From a virus (Duplodnaviria > Heunggongvirae > Uroviricota > Caudoviricetes), in the IMG/VR virus record IMGVR_UViG_3300028969_000089: a stretch of DNA of 7,379 nucleotides; one strand, written 5' to 3'. The position numbers and the translations under genes were made by a program. The notes beneath the pieces were generated by a model, which was not told where the DNA came from, searched no databases, and saw only the letters and a list, made by a program, of their open reading frames with translations. Position 1 is the first letter of the stretch. Every line of letters starts with the position of its first letter. This document shows positions 1 to 7,379 of this stretch, piece after piece.

Positions 1-82
1 AAATGTGGCCTGGCTGCACTCTGAAGTCACCGCATGGATGGCCGGGCGCATTGCCGGACGCAAACGGGGGTACGACGCATGA
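1..82 (+). CDS. 3' end of Vis/AlpA-family small DNA-binding regulator (5' truncated by window edge)
   Basis: Aligns base-for-base with 6744..6825, the 3' end of the complete 88-aa ORF 6559..6825. Reading frame ends at stop TGA 80..82, encoding ...[26 protein letters not shown]. Confidence 0.6.
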
Positions 83-117
83 TGATGCCCGCTCTGCAAA
101 AACTCCCTTTTTCTGGC

Positions 118-147
118 TTGCCTTTTTCCGGCATTTGCGGATATAGT
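118..147 (+). promoter_or_regulatory. Sigma70-like promoter, candidate early promoter of the left operon (P4 PLE equivalent)
   Basis: TTGCCT (118..123), 18-nt spacer, TATAGT (142..147), directly downstream of the vis stop. Identical hexamers at 6861..6866 and 6885..6890 in copy B. Confidence 0.4.
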
Positions 148-210
148 TTTTCCGCTGTCGCAAAATCGGCAGCCGGGCGTGAGAACCCGAGCAATTCACA
201 GGCGACATAT

Positions 211-232
211 GACGCGCCACGCGTCTTTTTTT
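211..232 (+). terminator. Intrinsic terminator-like hairpin in the leader
   Basis: GACGCG (211..216), loop CCA, CGCGTC (220..225), then seven T (226..232). Copy B keeps a GACGC/GCGTC stem plus T7 at 6954..6975. Confidence 0.45.
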
Positions 233-390
233 GTGTCGCAATCAATGCCACAGAGCGCCAGATTATGGTGTGGTGTGTGGTCAGTCGTGCAGATGGCATT
301 CCGTGCATCCTGCCCGCGTCCGCTCATTATGCCGCAGAGTCAATGGTAGCTCAGGCGGGGCAGCCTCCGGGCTGGCCGGTATCCTGTGAA

Positions 391-452
391 GCCGGTATTC
401 TCACCCCCGTCTGGGCTATCGCCATCGAGCGTGAGAACTCCGGCGATAGCGT
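391..452 (+). ncRNA. Candidate CI-like immunity RNA core (62-nt block identical in both repeat copies)
   Basis: The 62 nt at 391..452 are identical to 7125..7186 while the 10 nt immediately upstream and the sequence downstream differ. Contains a 9-bp stem GCTATCGCC (415..423) / GGCGATAGC (442..450) with an 18-nt loop exposing GTGAGAAC (431..438), and an upstream TTCTCAC (398..404) complementary to GTGAGAA. Confidence 0.35.
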
Positions 453-480
453 TATTTGCTATTCACAGGAGGCTGCCATC

Positions 481-678
481 ATGGCTACAACCCTTACCCC
501 CTCACACCCTGAATTTGTCTTTGTGTTTGCGGCTGTCCGTCGCGCAGACCGTCATCCCCGTATCTGTATGCTTCGCACCGTCGCCGGTGATGAACGCAGT
601 GCCCGCCGTTCCCTTGTCCGTGACTATGTGCTCTCCCTTGCTGCCCGTCTGCCGGTGGTGGAGGTGTCCCGTGCGTAA
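481..678 (+). CDS. Small conserved protein (65 aa) downstream of the CI-like block; function unknown (Kil/Eps position of a P4-type left operon)
   Basis: ATG 481 preceded by AGGAGG (467..472) with an 8-nt spacer. Copy B (7215..7379) differs at only three positions across the 55 aligned codons, all synonymous third-base changes (ACA/ACG, CCC/CCT, TGT/TGC). Confidence 0.55.
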
Positions 679-958
679 TAAAAAAGCCCCTCAGACCGTC
701 TCAGCGCGTCATGACGCCCGTGAACACCTCAGCATTGAGGCTTATCATAAGCTCAACCGTGCCAGCGCCGTATCCCAGTTTGTTGGGGGTGATTTGATTC
801 ACCGTGAACTCTCCGGCCTGCATCAGCTCTACATTCCGCATATTTTCAGCTACCTGAATGAAGATATTGATTTTGTGCTGAATGAGCTGAAAGCCAAAGG
901 CCTGTGCCGCGATTTTCTCGCCCAGCAGAAAGACCGGGGAGACAGGACGCATGTTTGA
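671..958 (+). CDS. Hypothetical small protein (95 aa), probably translationally coupled to the preceding ORF
   Basis: GTG 671 overlaps the upstream stop (GTGCGTAA) and is preceded by GGAGG (660..664). No in-frame ATG. The long 190-aa frame 386..958 would have to run through the conserved RNA block, so the short form is preferred. Confidence 0.4.
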
Positions 959-1011
959 TTTTCCCCAGCTCCACCACTTGCTCTTCCGGATACGTCCGGA
1001 GAAATCCTAAA

Positions 1012-1160: not shown

Positions 1161-2372
1161 GTGGCAAGAACGACACGCCCCCTGACCAACACAGAAGTTC
1201 TGCGCGCTAAAGCGTTAGAAAAGGATCTAACGTTACATGATGGCGATGGCCTTTTTCTGCTCGTTAAAACGAACGGTAAGAAGTTGTGGCGTTTCCGTTA
1301 TCAACGTCCAGCAACAAAACAGCGGACAATGATGGGGCTTGGTGCTTTCCCCGCCCTTTCACTTGCTGATGCTCGAAGGTTAAGAGCGGATTACCTTGCT
1401 TTGTTGGCTAATGGTATAGACCCACAAGTTCAAGCTGAATTTATCGAAGAACAACAACAGATAGCTCTAGACAGTATTTTTTCGACTGTTGCGACCAACT
1501 GGTTCCAGATAAAAAGCAAAAGCGTTACCCCTGATTACGCTAAAGATATATGGCGCTCACTGGAAAAAGACGTATTCCCTGCCATCGGGGAGATTCCTGT
1601 CCAGCAAATAAAAGCCCGAACACTAGTTGAAGCCCTTGAGCCAATCAAAGCTCGTGGAGCACTCGAGACAGTGCGCCGACTTGTACAGCGCATTAACGAG
1701 ATAATGATTTATGCCGTAAACACTGGTCTGATTGATGCCAATCCAGCATCAGGTGTTGGGATGGCCTTTGAAAAGCCCAGAAAACAAAACATGCCGACGC
1801 TGAGGCCAGAAGAATTACCAAAGCTGATGCGTTCTTTGTTCATGTCAAATCTGTCTGTTCCGACTCGCTGTCTCATTGAATGGCAGCTTCTGACTCTAGT
1901 GCGTCCTGCTGAAGCTTCCGGTGCTCGATGGGCAGAGATCGATCTCGATGCAAAGCTCTGGATGATTCCAGCCGAACGGATGAAGGCCAAACGAGAGCAC
2001 ATAGTTCCTTTATCCACGCAGGCATTAGAAATTCTAGAAGTGATGCAACCTATTAGCGCACATCGTGAGCATGTTTTCCCAAGCAGAAATGACCCTAAAC
2101 AACCAATGAATAGCCAGACTGCGAATGCCGCGCTTAAGCGCATTGGTTATGGTGGGAAGCTTGTTGCTCATGGATTACGTTCTATAGCAAGTACAGCACT
2201 AAATGAAGCTGGTTTTAATCCGGACGTAATTGAAGCGGCACTTGCTCACAGTGATAAAAATGAAGTTCGAAGAGCATACAATCGTTCAACTTACCTTGAA
2301 CAACGTATAGACTTGATGAATTGGTGGGGTGAATTTGTGCACAACCGCCACCGCCTCATGCAAGCGATTTAA
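1161..2372 (+). CDS. int: P4-type tyrosine integrase (site-specific recombinase)
   Basis: 403-aa ORF starting GTG 1161 with AAGGAG at 1147..1152. N-terminal arm-binding-type sequence (LHDGDGLFLLVKTNGKKLWRFRYQ) and C-terminal catalytic signature HGLRSIAS ... RAYNRSTY typical of P4-family integrases. Confidence 0.9.
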   Translation: MARTTRPLTNTEVLRAKALEKDLTLHDGDGLFLLVKTNGKKLWRFRYQRPATKQRTMMGLGAFPALSLADARRLRADYLALLANGIDPQVQAEFIEEQQQIALDSIFSTVATNWFQIKSKSVTPDYAKDIWRSLEKDVFPAIGEIPVQQIKARTLVEALEPIKARGALETVRRLVQRINEIMIYAVNTGLIDANPASGVGMAFEKPRKQNMPTLRPEELPKLMRSLFMSNLSVPTRCLIEWQLLTLVRPAEASGARWAEIDLDAKLWMIPAERMKAKREHIVPLSTQALEILEVMQPISAHREHVFPSRNDPKQPMNSQTANAALKRIGYGGKLVAHGLRSIASTALNEAGFNPDVIEAALAHSDKNEVRRAYNRSTYLEQRIDLMNWWGEFVHNRHRLMQAI

Positions 2373-2399: not shown

Positions 2400-3758
2400 A
2401 TGCCAAATAACTACCATCAATACATCGAAGACGTTAGTGATGATATAAAGACATGTCTTGAAGGAATGGGATGCCAACCCATACTTTTTGTTGGATCGGG
2501 ATTAACCAAGAGATATCTTTCTGGCCCAAACTGGGAAGAACTTCTTCAGCAACTTGCTAATGAATGTCCTAACATCGATAAAAGATTTGCCTATTATAAA
2601 CAGAAATACCCCGAGTTGATTGATATCGGCAGTGTATTTTCTGATTCTTATAACGAGTGGGCATGGGGTGATGGAGAGAAAGAATTTCCAGCAGAGTTAT
2701 TTGATGCAGGCAATGAGCCAAGTATTTATTTTAAATACAAAGTATCTAGTATTTTCAACTCATTGTTACAAGAAAAAGAAATCGTAAACAACGGTGAAAT
2801 TGAACTTCTGAGAAAGATTCACCCTCATTCAATCATCACAACAAATTACGACAAATTACTTGAATCGATATATCCTGAGTTTACCCCCATTATAGGCCAA
2901 AAAATCCTTTACGCTAATCACGGTAGCATTGGTGAAATACTTAAAATACATGGTTGCTGCTCCACTCCTGAAAGCATAATAATAAACCGCGATGACTACG
3001 ATGACTTCATAAAGAAGAAGAAATATTTAAGCGCAAAACTGCTTACTTTCTTTGCTGAACACCCTCTTCTATTTATAGGTTACAGCGCAGAAGACTCGAA
3101 CATAAAAAACATACTATCTGATATTGATGAACTACTTTCAGAAAATGGAGATGTCATTCCAAATATATACATTTTAGAATGGACGAGCAAACAAAATGAA
3201 AGTGAATACCCACGCCGTGAACGGCTGATTCAAGTATCTGCAAACAAAAGCATTAGAATAAAAAGTATAGTAGCAAATGACTTCTCTTGGGTATTTTCAG
3301 CGTTTGGCGCGAACAGAGCACTTGATAACATAAATCCCAAATTATTGAGGGCACTTTTAGCTCGCACTTACGATCTCGTCAGAACTGATATACCTCGCAA
3401 TCCTGTCCAAGTTGATTACCGAGTTTTATCAAGCATTAGCGAGTCAGAAGGTGAATTAGCGAAATTATATGGTATCGCCACATCGTCAGATGGTATGGCA
3501 TTTAATGCCAGTTATCCTTTTACTTTAACCACGCTAGGGCAATCACTTGGTTTCAAAGGCTGGCATGATGCGAACAAACTATTAGAAGTAGTTAAAAACA
3601 TCACGAACGTAGACATCAAGACATTCGATAACAAATACCACTATGCAATAATGAACGGTGATGAGATTCAGTCCCATAGATATTCAAACTATCTTCGAGA
3701 ACTCCTCGAAAAGGTTAGGGATGGAGAGGAGTTTGAGTTAGGAATAAAGGCTCCATAA
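2400..3758 (+). CDS. SIR2-like (SIR2_2-type) putative NAD+-hydrolase, candidate standalone antiphage defence protein with an uncharacterised C-terminal domain
   Basis: 452-aa ORF with AAGGAG at 2388..2393. Motifs read directly: ILFVGSGLTKRYLSGPNWEELL (Gly-rich NAD pocket), ITTNYD (Asn149, codon 2844..2846), KIHG (His184, codon 2949..2951), LFIGYSAED. Gene is markedly AT-rich against GC-rich flanks and starts 25 bp after the int stop. Confidence 0.8.
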   Translation: MPNNYHQYIEDVSDDIKTCLEGMGCQPILFVGSGLTKRYLSGPNWEELLQQLANECPNIDKRFAYYKQKYPELIDIGSVFSDSYNEWAWGDGEKEFPAELFDAGNEPSIYFKYKVSSIFNSLLQEKEIVNNGEIELLRKIHPHSIITTNYDKLLESIYPEFTPIIGQKILYANHGSIGEILKIHGCCSTPESIIINRDDYDDFIKKKKYLSAKLLTFFAEHPLLFIGYSAEDSNIKNILSDIDELLSENGDVIPNIYILEWTSKQNESEYPRRERLIQVSANKSIRIKSIVANDFSWVFSAFGANRALDNINPKLLRALLARTYDLVRTDIPRNPVQVDYRVLSSISESEGELAKLYGIATSSDGMAFNASYPFTLTTLGQSLGFKGWHDANKLLEVVKNITNVDIKTFDNKYHYAIMNGDEIQSHRYSNYLRELLEKVRDGEEFELGIKAP

Positions 3759-3787
3759 TTATTCATATAGCCTTACTACTTTTTATG

Positions 3788-3809
3788 GCCGCTTTAATAG
3801 CGGCTTTTT
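3788..3809 (+). terminator. Rho-independent terminator after the SIR2-like gene
   Basis: Stem GCCGCT (3788..3793) / AGCGGC (3799..3804), loop TTAAT, then TTTTT (3805..3809), 30 bp past the stop codon. Confidence 0.55.
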
Positions 3810-3945
3810 CACAGCATTATTCATGCTTCTAGCACGATATGATGAACCGCAATAATCATAGCTAACAGGATTAATTTAAAGCATTACTCCTCGACTGAAG
3901 CGTGCTGTCATGCGAAAAAAATTTAAACTACCACGTTAGCGCGCA

Positions 3946-3964
3946 GTGCTTTCCCCGCCTCGCC
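3946..3964. other. Candidate cos site (P2/P4-type 19-nt cohesive end)
   Basis: GTGCTTTCCCCGCCTCGCC is the exact reverse complement of GGCGAGGCGGGGAAAGCAC, which I recall as the P2/P4 cohesive-end sequence. It lies between the cargo gene and psu, as cos does in P4. Confidence 0.6.
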
Positions 3965-4066
3965 CGCCCGCTTTGCGGGGCGGTTTTAATGCAGTTGCAC
4001 TGACACGCTCAGACCGCGCCGGGAATGGTGCGGTCTGCAGAAAATGAGGCAGGAAAACGCATGCAA

Positions 4067-4098
4067 AGCCATGCACCTTATCGATGCATGGCTTTTTT
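4067..4098 (+). terminator. Hairpin plus T-tract in the cos-to-psu spacer (terminator-like)
   Basis: 9-bp stem AGCCATGCA (4067..4075) / TGCATGGCT (4085..4093), 9-nt loop, T-run to 4098. It is oriented to stop plus-strand read-through into antisense psu. Confidence 0.35.
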
Positions 4099-4128
4099 CA
4101 GTAAAAACGGGCGGATTTTCGGGGAATT

Positions 4129-4701
4129 TTACACAGACTGACGTGATGCCAGTTGCGCACTTTTACGCGAAAAAATCATGTTCTGCGCAGGGGTGAATTT
4201 TTCACGGCTGTCATCCACCGAAGCCGCGTCAGGCCTGAATCCGATGGCCGTTAAAATGTCGCTATCCTGTGCGGAATAATTAATTTTTTCCCCCTTCGCA
4301 AGCCAGGACAGAAGGGCTTCACGCAGGGCATCTGTGGCACGCTGTATGGCACAGTTTCGGGCAATGACCGTCAGCTCACTGTAGCCCATCAGCTCCGGTG
4401 CCAGTGCCGCCGCCAGTGCTGTGCCGTGCTGCTGCATAAAATCATTCAGCCGGTCGCGGATGCTGATGTGCTGAACGGCTTCATGCGAACGAATATAACG
4501 ACCGGCGGCCTGATTCACCTGCCATTTTCTGACTTCGATAATATTGCGTAATTCGTCCAAGCGACTGACGTTTCTGCCTTCTCCTGACAGAAGCCGCAGA
4601 TATTCCTGTTCGGCCGCAGCCAGCTCATTTTTGCGTTGCAGCCATGCTGCTTTGTTATTCTGACAGGTGTCAAAGGCCTGCTGTAAGGCTGTGCTTTCCA
4701 T
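4129..4701 (-). CDS. psu: Polarity suppression protein Psu (P4 capsid decoration / Rho antagonist)
   Basis: 190-aa ORF whose sequence (MESTALQQAFDTCQNNKAAWLQRKNELAAAEQEY...) matches my recollection of P4 Psu in length and sequence. Last gene of the sid-delta-psu late operon. Confidence 0.85.
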   Translation of the reverse strand: MESTALQQAFDTCQNNKAAWLQRKNELAAAEQEYLRLLSGEGRNVSRLDELRNIIEVRKWQVNQAAGRYIRSHEAVQHISIRDRLNDFMQQHGTALAAALAPELMGYSELTVIARNCAIQRATDALREALLSWLAKGEKINYSAQDSDILTAIGFRPDAASVDDSREKFTPAQNMIFSRKSAQLASRQSV

Positions 4702-4774
4702 CGTTATCTCTTTCTCATCATGCTGAAGAATAAAAATACGGTGTGCGGCGACGGCCGGTGTTAACCGGCAGCCC

Positions 4775-5275
4775 TCATTCCAGACGCAGCGAATATGATT
4801 GTGTTTTTAACCGTACTGGCGGCAGTTCCTGTTTTTCATGCAGGCGTTCTGCCAGTTCGTCCGGTGTGACCGGGCGGACAATGAAGCGGTTGATGGTCTG
4901 AAGCGTTTTAAACACCAGACCACATCCCGGATCCGTGCACACATAAAAACGCTCGGTGACTTCCTGAGACAGACGCCGCGATGTTCTTGACAGTGCAAGG
5001 CCTTTACATCTCCGACAACAATATCCGGTAACAAGCATTCTTTTCGGGCGTTTCATACTGCCGGAGGCTGACGTCAGTGAATCGCGGTATCTCTGTTTGC
5101 CTGAAATGTATTCCATTCCTGAATCTTTACAGTCAGAGAAAAAGCTTTCACTCGCTTCAAATGTCGCAGAGCAATAAATATTCCGGCACTGTGCAATCAT
5201 TATCTTGGTGCCATCGTCCATGAAATGTGCGCGACGGGTGTGAGCAACATGTCCACACGACGGGCAGTAAATCAT
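4775..5275 (-). CDS. delta: Delta, Ogr/Delta-family zinc-finger late transcription activator
   Basis: 166 aa, the length of P4 Delta. Two Ogr-like halves each with Cys pairs (CPSC...CRNIYC and CCRRC...CTDPGC). Start overlaps the sid stop in an ATGA junction at 5272..5275. Confidence 0.85.
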   Translation of the reverse strand: MIYCPSCGHVAHTRRAHFMDDGTKIMIAQCRNIYCSATFEASESFFSDCKDSGMEYISGKQRYRDSLTSASGSMKRPKRMLVTGYCCRRCKGLALSRTSRRLSQEVTERFYVCTDPGCGLVFKTLQTINRFIVRPVTPDELAERLHEKQELPPVRLKTQSYSLRLE

Positions 5276-6006
5276 GACAGCAGTCCTCTGGCCTTAAGCT
5301 CTGCTCCCTGCTGGTCTATTTTGTCCTGCCACACCTTGCGCTGTGCCGGTGTGCCTGCCACCTCATAATCCATGTGCGGGAGTGTTGCCGCTGACAGTCC
5401 GGTCAGCCGGAGAACCGGCTCGCCGGTGAGGCTGATTTGCATCTGTTTAATTTTCTGTTCCAGCGATGATTTCACCTGCTGCATGACAGCCTTTTCCGGT
5501 GCGACGTAGCCCTGATGGCCGGTGGTGTTGGCGAGCGGATTTTCCTGTACCAGGATACTCAGATGCATTGCCCGGACAAGCGCCTCACAGGTTTCATTTA
5601 GGGCGTGTTCCAGCTCATGCTCTGCATACAGACTCAGAAGGTGATGATGTGCCTTCCGGTAGGCGGTGGCCGTGCTGTCACACGCCCCTTTCAGGCGTTC
5701 ACGTTCGAAATTCAGCACCACGGCCAGATTGTCATATTCCTGTACCAGCTCCCGGCGTGCCACGCGCTCAATGTGGCGCTGTTTCAGCTCGTCGCTCAGG
5801 ACACCACCGGCTGCACGAAAGGCCGTGCGCCAGTCGTCAGCGTCGTTTCCGTCGGCCTGCGCCAGCGCATTTTTTTCCTGCTCTGCCCGTTCAATGGCCG
5901 TGATGGTCTCATCCATCAGGCGGGCGTTCTCAAGATGAGCGGCTCTGGCCTTTTCCAGTTGTGCCAGCGCGGGTTGCAGATATTCAGGGATGGTGTTGTC
6001 AGACAT
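5272..6006 (-). CDS. sid: Sid, external scaffold / capsid size determination protein
   Basis: The ORF track extends to 6072, but the ATG at 6004..6006 (MSDNTIPEYL...) has a GGAG 6 nt upstream and gives 244 aa, matching P4 Sid as I recall it. The upstream ATG would overlap the predicted promoter dyads. Confidence 0.8.
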   Translation of the reverse strand: MSDNTIPEYLQPALAQLEKARAAHLENARLMDETITAIERAEQEKNALAQADGNDADDWRTAFRAAGGVLSDELKQRHIERVARRELVQEYDNLAVVLNFERERLKGACDSTATAYRKAHHHLLSLYAEHELEHALNETCEALVRAMHLSILVQENPLANTTGHQGYVAPEKAVMQQVKSSLEQKIKQMQISLTGEPVLRLTGLSAATLPHMDYEVAGTPAQRKVWQDKIDQQGAELKARGLLS

Positions 6007-6040
6007 TTTCCGGCTCCTCGTCACTTCAGGTTGAGAAAAT

Positions 6041-6096
6041 TGTGACGTACACCGGACAACAACACGACGCATTGCAGATGTGCCAGCCCTGACACA
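6041..6096 (-). promoter_or_regulatory. Candidate Psid late promoter with two Ogr/Delta-type TGT-N12-ACA dyads
   Basis: Dyads TGT-N12-ACA at 6041..6058 and 6079..6096, centres 38 bp apart. If the distal dyad is at -55 the start site falls near 6032, about 26 nt upstream of the sid ATG, and the proximal dyad near -17. Confidence 0.5.
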
Positions 6097-6175
6097 GGAG
6101 ACTCATCCTCAGACCGGCAAGCCAGGAAAAGGTCGCAGGAAAAACCGGCTTACTGTTTGTTTTTTTATATTTTAC

Positions 6176-6279
6176 TGTTCACCTCTGTTCACCATAAGAA
6201 AAAAGATAAGTAATACAGTAAGTTAAATGGTGAACAATCGCAGTAATGACTGTTCACCGTCTGTTCACCACTGTTCACC
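6176..6279. repeat. Iteron array: six TGTTCACC octamers (ori/crr-like replication element)
   Basis: Octamers at 6176, 6186, 6251, 6262, 6272 (direct) and 6229..6236 (inverted). Adjacent direct copies are spaced 10 to 11 bp, with an AT-rich stretch between the clusters. TGTTCACC is the repeat I recall as the P4 alpha-protein binding site in ori and crr. Confidence 0.55.
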
Positions 6280-6382
6280 CGCTCATGGACTTTTTGTGCT
6301 GTTTACTACTGTTTGTTTTTATTAATTCGCCGGGAATGAATAAGAAGAAACGATTTGTATTTCACTATAAAAATTACGAATT

Positions 6383-6412
6383 GCTTTAAGTGGCTTTAAA
6401 TGACTTTAAGTG
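6383..6412. repeat. Three tandem 10-bp repeats upstream of vis
   Basis: GCTTTAAGTG (6383..6392), GCTTTAAATG (6393..6402), ACTTTAAGTG (6403..6412): head-to-tail and helically phased. Confidence 0.4.
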
Positions 6413-6438
6413 GGAATGAACAAAAAACACACAGTCAT

Positions 6439-6456
6439 TGTAAGGCGGCCGGAACA
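6439..6456 (+). promoter_or_regulatory. Candidate activator dyad for the rightward late promoter upstream of vis (PLL equivalent)
   Basis: TGT (6439..6441), 12 nt, ACA (6454..6456). Placing it at -55 puts the start site near 6502, about 57 nt upstream of the vis ATG. No convincing -10 hexamer was identified. Confidence 0.25.
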
Positions 6457-6558
6457 AATCCCCCCTGTTGCGTCTGCCAAAAAGATTCACAAAATAAAGC
6501 GCTACCCGAAGCCGGACGGACTTATCCGGTGCTGTATGGACATTAACGAGGTAGCCCG

Positions 6559-6825
6559 ATGCAAGCTGTTTTTTCTTCCCCGTCTCCCTCCCCTGTGACG
6601 CCACTGATGCCGCTGCCGGACATCACGCAGGAGCGTTTTTTACGTCTGCCGGAAGTGATGCACCTGTGCGGCCTGTCACGTTCGACCATCTATGAACTCA
6701 TCCGTAAGGGGGAATTTCCGCCGCAGGTGAGTCTTGGCGGTAAAAATGTGGCCTGGCTGCACTCTGAAGTCACCGCATGGATGGCCGGGCGCATTGCCGG
6801 ACGCAAACGGGGGTACGACGCATGA
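6559..6825 (+). CDS. vis: Vis/AlpA-family small DNA-binding regulator / excisionase-like protein
   Basis: 88-aa ORF with an AlpA-type helix-turn-helix core ([43 protein letters not shown]). Position between the late promoter region and the early promoter matches P4 vis as I recall it. Confidence 0.75.
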
Positions 6826-6860
6826 TGATGCCTGTTCTGCAAAAACTCCCTTTTTCTGGC

Positions 6861-6890
6861 TTGCCTTTTTCCGGCATTTGCGGATATAGT
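6861..6890 (+). promoter_or_regulatory. Sigma70-like promoter, copy B of the candidate early promoter
   Basis: TTGCCT (6861..6866), 18-nt spacer, TATAGT (6885..6890); identical to copy A. Confidence 0.4.
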
Positions 6891-6953
6891 TTTTCCGTTG
6901 CCGCAAAATCGGCAGCCGGGCGTGAGAACCCGAGTATGTTATCGGCGACATAT

Positions 6954-6975
6954 GACGCGCCATGCGTCTTTTTTT
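6954..6975 (+). terminator. Leader hairpin plus T7, copy B
   Basis: GACGC (6954..6958) / GCGTC (6964..6968) with a 5-nt loop, then seven T (6969..6975). Confidence 0.4.
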
Positions 6976-7124
6976 GTGTCGCAATCAACGCCACAGAGCA
7001 CCAGATTATGGTGTGGCGTGTGGTTTGCCGTGCAGGTATGATCCTGTTCGCAATCGCATGTTATGCCTCTGAGTCAATGGTAGCTCAGGCGGGGCAGCCT
7101 CCGGGCTGGCCGGTTTCCGATAAC

Positions 7125-7186
7125 GCCGGTATTCTCACCCCCGTCTGGGCTATCGCCATCGAGCGTGAGAACTCCGGCGATAGCGT
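7125..7186 (+). ncRNA. Candidate CI-like immunity RNA core, copy B
   Basis: 62 nt identical to 391..452, flanked by diverged sequence. Confidence 0.35.
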
Positions 7187-7214
7187 CATTTACGCTGTTA
7201 TCGGAGGTTGCCTT

Positions 7215-7379
7215 ATGGCTACGACCCTTACCCCTTCACACCCTGAATTTGTCTTTGTGTTTGCGGCTGTCCGTCGCGCAGACCGTCATCCCCGTATCTG
7301 CATGCTTCGCACCGTCGCCGGTGATGAACGCAGTGCCCGCCGTTCCCTTGTCCGTGACTATGTGCTCTCCCTTGCTGCC
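7215..7379 (+). CDS. Small conserved protein, copy B (3' truncated by window end)
   Basis: ATG 7215 preceded by GGAGG. The 55 codons visible differ from 481..645 only at three synonymous sites. Confidence 0.5.

What the first reader, a model, noticed from the sequence alone, without database searches (positions are those of the whole stretch)
3946..3964. Exact 19-nt P2/P4-type cohesive-end sequence between the cargo gene and psu
GTGCTTTCCCCGCCTCGCC is the reverse complement of the cohesive-end sequence I recall for P2 and P4. Together with psu, delta and sid it indicates the element can still be packaged by a P2-like helper, so the cargo gene is mobilisable at high frequency. GC-rich hairpins flank it at about 3963..3983 and 4067..4098.
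Basis: partly seen in the sequence, partly recalled or inferred. Interest (0 to 1): 0.45.

Follow-up and report, generated by a model that had tools for sequence, protein, structure and literature searches.

The report
Packaging (cos) site of P4-like satellite
The 19 bases are the known cut-and-package signal (cos) of a P4-like satellite prophage, lying where the literature places it, between the psu gene and the satellite's variable defence-gene slot; this is ordinary and already described.

Summary
Window 3946-3964 is the exact reverse complement of GGCGAGGCGGGGAAAGCAC. That sequence is the first 19 nt of the P4 record and the annotated cosL/cosR of P2.

The match is not chance, because the flanks are conserved too. 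The whole 55-bp P2/P4 cos core (3939-3993) is 54/55 identical to P4 and 53/55 to P2. Across 37 cos sites, conservation runs from 3939 to 3999 and collapses at 3938, where the variable hotspot begins.

To the right lies 96.9% P4-identical DNA with intact psu, delta, sid and vis. To the left lie a single SIR2-family cargo gene and a non-P4, ssrA-type integrase. The cargo protein is identical to WP_001133507. Rousset et al. 2022 catalogued it, cloned it and found no activity against their phage panel.

This arrangement, a cos-adjacent hotspot between psu and int, is published, so the finding is already known.

The claim that the element can still be packaged is plausible but not shown for this copy:
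- The primase (alpha) lies outside the window.
- The left attachment site keeps only 12 nt of the ssrA repeat, fused to a truncated second P4-like copy.

The cos-adjacent "hairpin" (3964-3983) shows no excess stability and no covariation. It reads as conserved cos sequence, not as a conserved fold.

The parts
3946..3964 (.). 19-bp cohesive-end segment of cos. The inferred staggered nicks lie between 3945/3946 on the + strand and between 3965/3964 on the - strand, giving 5'-protruding 19-nt ends.
   Evidence: Exact match to P4 bases 1-19 and to P2 cosL/cosR. The nick polarity is inferred from the 186 record note 'top strand cut at 5' end and bottom strand cut at 3' end', and from the P4 record ending at the base that corresponds to window 3965.
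3939..3999 (.). Conserved cos core. The published 55-bp P2/P4 homology is 3939-3993. Conservation in 37 cos sites extends to 3999 (the TGCAnnTGCAT motif). The boundary with the variable hotspot is at 3938/3939.
   Evidence: Anchored alignment of window, P4, P2, 186 and 33 genome loci: at least 90% conservation at most positions from 3939 to 3999 and 57% or less from 3938 leftwards. The same holds for 15 P4-like and 58 P2-like viral contigs. E. coli matches start at window about 3938-3941. The 55-bp figure comes from PMC2231350 and PMC9594776.
3964..3983 (.). Imperfect GC-rich inverted repeat inside the cos core, followed by TTTTAAT on the + strand. It is a conserved sequence, not a supported fold.
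   Evidence: Found. z = 0.0 and -0.45 against shuffles. Pairs 3982-3965, 3980-3967 and 3976-3970 are unpaired in 27, 16 and 23 of 36 cos sites. The nick-proximal arm is nearly invariant while the distal arm varies uncompensated.
4010..4037 (.). Inverted repeat CAGACCGCaCC-N6-GGcGCGGTCTG between cos and the psu terminator. It may be an accessory recognition element.
   Evidence: z = -3.3. The right arm GGCGCGG is 76-84% conserved in P4-like and 186-like cos regions and is absent from P2.
4065..4095 (-). Terminator-like hairpin just downstream of psu, with a 13-bp stem. U-rich tracts lie on both sides, so it may act in both directions.
   Evidence: z = -3.7 on the - strand, -2.3 on the + strand. 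The P4 sequence is identical.
4129..4701 (-). psu (polarity suppression and capsid decoration protein)
   Evidence: Pfam Psu, E = 2e-88. 98.4% identical to P4 Psu over 190/190 aa.
4775..5275 (-). delta (Ogr/Delta transactivator of helper late genes)
   Evidence: Pfam Ogr_Delta with two stretches. 98.2% identical to P4 Delta over 166/166 aa.
5272..6006 (-). sid (capsid size-determining scaffold). The mechanical ORF runs on to 6072; the start equivalent to P4's is at 6006.
   Evidence: 99.2% identical to P4 Sid over 244/244 aa.
6559..6825 (+). orf88/vis (AlpA-family excisionase and regulator)
   Evidence: Pfam Phage_AlpA. 97.7% identical to P4 ORF88.
2400..3758 (+). Hotspot cargo: a single SIR2_2-domain protein of 452 aa, with its own terminator-like hairpin at 3787-3805.
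   Evidence: Pfam SIR2_2, E = 4e-27. PADLOC PDC-S25, E = 2e-84. 100% identical to the CDS annotated WP_001133507, which Rousset 2022 list in Table S1A and in Table S2B as pFR88. Hairpin z = -3.6.
1161..2372 (+). Tyrosine integrase of the ssrA-inserting type, not P4's own integrase.
   Evidence: Pfam Phage_integrase, Phage_int_M and Arm-DNA-bind_3. 35.6% identical to P4 Int. It lies next to ssrA in related genomes.
965..976 (+). Remnant of the left attachment site: the last 12 nt of ssrA (CCAGCTCCACCA).
   Evidence: The full 23-nt repeat flanks the same satellite in strain E47.

Best explanation
This is the cos site of a P4-like satellite prophage of the ssrA-inserting lineage.

Mechanism, taken from what is established for P2 and P4:
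1. After excision the element is a closed circle.
2. The terminase of a P2-like helper recognises the roughly 55-60-bp core (window 3939-3999).
3. It makes two nicks 19 bp apart, on either side of 3946-3964.
4. It packages the resulting linear DNA, with 5'-protruding 19-nt ends, into capsids that Sid makes small.
5. After injection the ends anneal and the circle is resealed.

In the linear virion DNA the SIR2 cargo gene would lie at the end that begins GGCGAGG..., and psu at the other end.

The cos core also marks the fixed right-hand border of the satellite's variable defence hotspot, which runs from 3938 leftwards to int.

Shown here: sequence identity, flank conservation, gene context and the hotspot boundary. 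Inferred: cleavage, packaging and transfer of this particular copy.
For: - The 19-mer is exact and matches P4 bases 1-19 and the annotated P2 cosL/cosR.
- The 55-bp core is 54/55 identical to P4 and 53/55 to P2 (sequences).
- The core is conserved in 33 genome loci and 79 viral contigs, and conservation stops abruptly at 3938.
- Window 3965-7379 is 96.9% identical to P4 11624-8201, with full-length Sid, Delta, Psu and Vis.
- The same int-SIR2-cos-psu...alpha element exists complete in other E. coli. In strain E47 it is 10.4 kb between ssrA repeats, a P4-sized genome, and sits beside a P2-like prophage.
- Literature: a 55-bp cos, 19-bp ends and packaging from closed circles (PMC2231350); the hotspot between psu and int next to cos (PMC9122126).
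Against: - Nothing contradicts the identification.
- Function of this copy is untested.
- The overall identity to P4 is so high (97-99%) that conservation within this one element does not by itself show selection.
- alpha and attR are outside the window.
- attL is reduced to 12 nt and abuts a truncated second P4-like copy.
Confidence: 0.93

Rival explanations
1. The sequence is a true cos site, but it sits in a stranded element. This copy cannot excise or replicate, because its attL is damaged and its primase may be lost as in its neighbour. The cos is then a recent relic and the cargo is not mobilisable as a satellite.
For: - Only 12 nt of the 23-nt ssrA repeat remain upstream of int, fused to a P4-like copy deleted from orf151 onwards.
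- The junction is found in none of 5,426 complete E. coli genomes.
- In L004, no attR copy is detectable after alpha.
Against: - All genes visible in the window are intact and nearly identical to P4.
- The attL side of an integrated element is mostly bacterial sequence, so 12 nt of core may be enough. This is inference.
- The unusual junction could be an assembly artefact at a repeat.
Confidence: 0.25
2. The 19-mer is a chance GC-rich match with no relation to packaging.
For: The exact 19-mer does occur by chance. Five of 38 hits in the 596-Gb genome collection lack any flank conservation and lie in GC-rich genomes. About 4.3 chance hits are expected (expectation is my arithmetic).
Against: Here 36 further flanking positions match P4 or P2, and the P4 late operon sits next to it. 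The chance expectation in this window is about 5e-8.
Confidence: 0.01
3. The GC-rich inverted repeats around the 19-mer act mainly as transcription terminators that insulate the cargo gene and psu from each other, and packaging is incidental.
For: - On the + strand, 3964-3983 is followed by TTTTAAT and scores as terminator-like.
- 4065-4095 is a strong hairpin with U tracts on both strands.
Against: - The cargo gene has its own terminator-like hairpin at 3787-3805.
- The 3964-3983 stem has no excess stability and is broken in most cos sites.
- The same sequence is conserved in P2-like phages, where the flanking genes differ.
- A terminator role for 4065-4095 is compatible with the main explanation and does not compete with it.
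Confidence: 0.1

Closest known systems
cos site of satellite phage P4 (NC_001609; Ziermann & Calendar 1990, as cited in PMC2231350 and PMC9594776)
   Same: The 19-bp cohesive-end sequence is identical and 54 of the 55 core bases match. The following 166 bp towards and into psu are 98.8% identical. The position downstream of psu is the same.
   Different: The first base beyond the 19-mer on the hotspot side is T here, as in P2 and 97% of cos sites, but C in P4. Everything beyond 3938 is unrelated: SIR2 here, against gop-beta-cII in P4.
cos site of helper phage P2 (NC_001895; cosL 1-19, cosR 33575-33593)
   Same: The 19-mer is identical and 53 of the 55 core bases match, including the TGCGCGC flank.
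   Different: Two bases differ in the centre of the inverted repeat (CAAA here, TGAA in P2). P2 lacks the 4010-4037 inverted repeat. Its flanking genes are Q (portal) and old, not psu and a satellite hotspot.
P4-like satellite defence hotspot between psu and int, next to cos (Rousset et al. 2022, PMC9122126; de Sousa et al. 2026, PMC13586616)
   Same: The architecture is the same. The cargo protein WP_001133507 ('SIR2_2') is listed 21 times in their Table S1A. The same system was cloned from E. coli M605 as pFR88, and that insert starts at window 2279.
   Different: Nothing differs in kind. pFR88 is among the 'additional tested systems' (Table S2B), not the validated ones, so a defence function for this cargo remains unshown.

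Membership tests
P2/P4-type cos site | The 19-nt cohesive-end sequence GGCGAGGCGGGGAAAGCAC | tested here: met
   Exact at 3946-3964 on the - strand sense. Identical to P4 1-19 and to P2 cosL/cosR.
P2/P4-type cos site | The conserved 55-bp core shared by P2 and P4: 29 bp on the right-end side, the 19 bp, and 7 bp on the left-end side | tested here: met
   Window 3939-3993 is 54/55 identical to P4 and 53/55 to P2. Each position is conserved in 37 sites and in 79 viral contigs. The 55-bp figure is from PMC2231350 and PMC9594776.
P2/P4-type cos site | Cleavage by P2-family terminase into 19-nt 5' overhangs, and packaging from closed circular monomers | not testable with these tools
   Needs virion DNA end mapping or a cosmid transduction assay.
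P4-like satellite | Late operon sid-delta-psu, ending at cos | tested here: met
   Full-length proteins 99.2, 98.2 and 98.4% identical to P4. Pfam Psu and Ogr_Delta.
P4-like satellite | Integrase and AlpA/Vis-type excisionase | tested here: met
   int at 1161-2372 and AlpA at 6559-6825. The integrase is only 35.6% identical to P4 Int, so it is of a different type that inserts at ssrA.
P4-like satellite | Primase-helicase alpha with ori/crr | not tested
   It would lie beyond window position 7379. It is present in the closest complete relatives (L004 16655-18988, L009 20610-22943).
P4-like satellite | Intact attL and attR direct repeats, with a total size near 10-12 kb | tested here: inconclusive
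   Only 12 nt of the ssrA repeat remain at 965-976, and attR is outside the window. The same satellite in strain E47 is 10.4 kb between 23-nt repeats.
Validated anti-phage defence system (the cargo) | Experimental protection against phage | not testable with these tools
   The literature lists the identical system (pFR88) among tested but unvalidated systems. PADLOC PDC-S25 is, from my own knowledge, a candidate class only.

The most novel reading that the evidence does not exclude
The window holds two direct repeats of the vis-cI region, at 1-645 and 6744-7379. They are 91% identical and 6743 bp apart, and they bracket int, the SIR2 gene, cos, psu, delta, sid and vis.

Homologous recombination between them would release a 6.7-kb circle without a primase that still carries cos and the cargo. 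P4 cosmids of 5-10 kb are packaged into P4 capsids (PMC2231350). Such a 'mini-satellite' could therefore be transduced without the integrase or the damaged attL.

Nothing here shows that this happens. The junction that creates the repeat might also be an assembly artefact.
Probability: 0.05. Interest if true: 0.35.

Novelty: already known. Interest (0 to 1): 0.1.

Why it matters
It matters for annotation, not for discovery. The cos core pins down the right-hand border of the satellite's defence hotspot to the base (3938/3939). It identifies the element as a P4-type satellite that depends on P2-family terminase. It also predicts the exact ends of the virion DNA. The biology is published: a shared cos in helper and satellite, with a defence hotspot beside it.

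Tried and rejected
- **A conserved hairpin at 3964-3983.** Rejected. It has no excess folding energy, and three of its eight pairs are unpaired in most of 36 cos sites, with no compensation apart from one case in phage 186.
- **The 4010-4037 inverted repeat as a universal cos element.** Rejected. It is absent in P2 and several P2-like phages, and its left arm is degenerate in the Klebsiella and Raoultella satellites.
- **Exchange between a P2-like helper and the satellite at cos.** Not supported. The window's first bases left of the core look more P2-like than P4-like. However, BLAST similarity to any phage record stops by 3930, no P2-like phage carries a close relative of the SIR2 gene, and the literature reports that P2 and P4 almost never exchange defence genes.
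- **A search for the eps/ssrA junction in 5,426 complete E. coli genomes.** None was found.
- **A search for attR in L004.** None was found within 3 mismatches.
- **tRNA and tmRNA scan of the window.** None was found, because only 12 nt of ssrA are present.

Full report
**Observation**

The 19-mer GTGCTTTCCCCGCCTCGCC is present once, at 3946-3964 on the + strand, with no mismatch. Its reverse complement, GGCGAGGCGGGGAAAGCAC, is the first 19 nt of the linear P4 record NC_001609. It is also the first 19 nt of P2 NC_001895. There it is annotated 'cosL; left cohesive end', and it recurs as 'cosR' at the right end of the record. Phage 186 has GGCGTGGCGGGGAAAGCAT, which differs at two bases, annotated as the cohesive end.

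**Is it more than chance?**

In a 7.4-kb window an exact 19-mer is expected about 5e-8 times (my arithmetic).

The 19-mer alone is not fully diagnostic in very large databases. A scan of 596 Gb of genomes gave 38 exact hits. Five of them, in GC-rich genomes and bins (Sphingomonas, Phycisphaerales, Fretibacterium, Chloroflexales, Verrucomicrobiia), have no conserved flanks. That is close to the roughly 4.3 chance hits expected.

The flanks make the call here. Read in P4 orientation, the window has TGCATTAAAACCGCCCCGCAAAGCGGGCG | 19-mer | TGCGCGC. This stretch is identical to P4 at 54 of 55 positions and to P2 at 53 of 55. It corresponds to the '55-bp cos sequence' that the literature gives as the only homology between P2 and P4 (PMC2231350 and PMC9594776, citing Ziermann & Calendar 1990).

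**Extent of the conserved element**

I anchored 37 cos regions on the 19-mer: the window, P4, P2, 186 and 33 genome loci from Escherichia, Salmonella, Klebsiella, Raoultella, Kosakonia, Phytobacter, Dickeya, Yokenella and others.
- Conservation is at least 90% at most positions from window 3939 to 3999.
- It falls to 57% or less at 3938 and stays low further left.

The same picture holds for IMG/VR contigs carrying the 19-mer.
- 15 P4-like contigs, with psu next to cos, match the window throughout the psu side and then diverge into 12 different left flanks.
- 58 P2-like contigs match only over about 3939-3999.

In complete E. coli genomes, 2,271 of 5,426 have a match to this region. The alignments begin at window about 3938-3941, or at 3915-3925 in a minority.

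The cos core is therefore 3939-3999, and 3938/3939 is the border of the variable region.

**Context**

Window 3965-7379 is 96.9% identical to P4 11624-8201. It encodes full-length Psu, Delta, Sid and ORF88/Vis at 98.4, 98.2, 99.2 and 97.7% identity to P4. The mechanical sid ORF is 22 codons longer than P4's annotated start.

Left of cos lie a single SIR2_2-domain gene (2400-3758) and a tyrosine integrase (1161-2372). The integrase is only 35.6% identical to P4 Int.

In E. coli 2018-10-1CC the same module sits at ssrA, in this order: ssrA, int, SIR2, cos, psu, delta, sid, vis, icd, eps, orf151, orf106, alpha. In strain E47 the same element is 10.4 kb between two copies of the ssrA 3' end, and it lies directly after a P2-like prophage. 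That size fits a P4-type capsid, whose own genome is 11.6 kb.

**How it most likely works**

The following is established knowledge for P2 and P4, as summarised in PMC2231350 and PMC9122126.
1. The satellite has no terminase or structural genes.
2. The helper's terminase recognises cos on covalently closed circles.
3. It cuts to leave 19-nt cohesive ends and fills capsids that Sid has made small.
4. The ends anneal after injection.

Applied to this window, the nicks would fall between 3945/3946 on the + strand and between 3965/3964 on the - strand. This is inferred from the record ends and from the 186 annotation. The SIR2 gene would then be at the GGCGAGG... end of the virion DNA. These steps are inferred for this copy; none could be tested here.

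**The hairpins**

*3964-3983.* This inverted repeat is real. However, it is no more stable than shuffled sequence (z = 0.0 and -0.45). Across 36 cos sites, three of its eight pairs are unpaired in most sequences. The nick-proximal arm (AAGCGGGC) is almost invariant, while the distal arm varies without compensation. It is best read as part of a protein-recognised sequence.

It is significantly stable (z = -3.3). Its right arm, GGCGCGG, recurs in P4-like and 186-like cos regions but not in P2. It may be an accessory recognition element. In line with this, longer cos flanks raised cosmid transduction greatly in PMC9594776.

*4065-4095.* This hairpin (13 bp, z = -3.7) lies about 34 nt after the psu stop codon and is identical in P4. 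It is most simply the psu terminator.

*3787-3805.* The cargo gene has its own terminator-like hairpin here (z = -3.6).

**Comparison with what is known**

The arrangement is the P4 defence hotspot of Rousset et al. [quoted passage not shown]

The cargo protein is 100% identical to the CDS annotated WP_001133507. That accession appears 21 times in their Table S1A as 'SIR2_2'. They cloned this system from E. coli M605 as pFR88. The first 64 bases shown for that insert match window 2279-2342 exactly. It is listed in Table S2B ('additional tested systems') and not among the validated ones.

PADLOC assigns the protein to PDC-S25 (E = 2e-84). From my own knowledge, that is a candidate class only.

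No P2-like phage record carries a close relative of the gene. This fits the 2026 report that P2 and P4 almost never exchange defence genes.

**Caveat on mobilisation**

Window 1-969 is a second P4-like segment: the C-terminus of vis, isrK, the C4/CI RNA, the cI ORF and eps. It is 99.2% identical to P4 8845-7877, and its first 645 bp are 91% identical to window 6744-7379. It stops five codons into orf151 and is fused to the last 12 nt of ssrA at 965-976.

The satellite that carries the cos site therefore has only half of the 23-nt repeat on its left. Its neighbour has lost its replication genes. No complete E. coli genome shows this junction. It could be a real deletion in a tandem array or an assembly artefact.

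Together with alpha and attR lying outside the window, this leaves 'still packageable' plausible but unproven for this copy.

**Verdict**

The identification as a P2/P4-type cos site is correct. The mobilisation inference is reasonable but untested. The finding is already known biology and useful mainly for precise annotation. Interest is low.

Noticed in passing
window 1-976: A truncated second P4-like copy (vis C-terminus, isrK, C4/CI RNA, cI ORF, eps). It is 99.2% identical to P4, closer to P4 than the main element is. It is cut five codons into orf151 and fused to the last 12 nt of ssrA. No complete E. coli genome has this junction. It is either a deletion in a tandem array or an assembly artefact.
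   Followed up: partly
window 1-645 and 6744-7379: A direct repeat, 91% identical and 6743 bp apart, brackets int, the SIR2 gene, cos, psu, delta, sid and vis. Recombination between the copies would release a 6.7-kb circle that carries cos.
   Followed up: no
window 154-231, 339-426, 6884-6974, 7073-7160: Rfam hits above the gathering score: isrK twice, the C4 antisense RNA (the P4 CI immunity RNA family) twice, and one c4-a1b1 target element. There is one set in each of the two P4-like copies.
   Followed up: no
window 2400-3758: The SIR2_2 cargo protein is identical to WP_001133507. Rousset et al. 2022 cloned it as pFR88 from E. coli M605 and list it among the tested but unvalidated systems. 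PADLOC assigns it to PDC-S25, with weaker similarity to ThsA and LmuA SIR2 domains.
   Followed up: partly
L009 (E. coli E47, NZ_CP121151) 1-23459: The same SIR2-bearing satellite lies in tandem directly after a P2-like prophage that carries an anti-phage dCTP deaminase, at the ssrA site. A potential helper and its satellite are therefore neighbours.
   Followed up: no
window 3901-3938: The first bases left of the cos core (TAACGTGGTAG...ATTTTTTTCGC) resemble the P2-like cosL flank (TGACGGTGGTG...ATTTTTTCAGC) more than they resemble other P4-like flanks. The similarity is short and T-rich, and BLAST support ends by 3930.
   Followed up: partly
L015, L021, L031, L038, L040 (genome contigs): Genuine P2/P4-type cos sites with enterobacterial flanks occur in assemblies or bins labelled Bacillota, Vagococcus, Clostridiales and Lachnospiraceae. 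The likely cause is contamination or misbinning.
   Followed up: no
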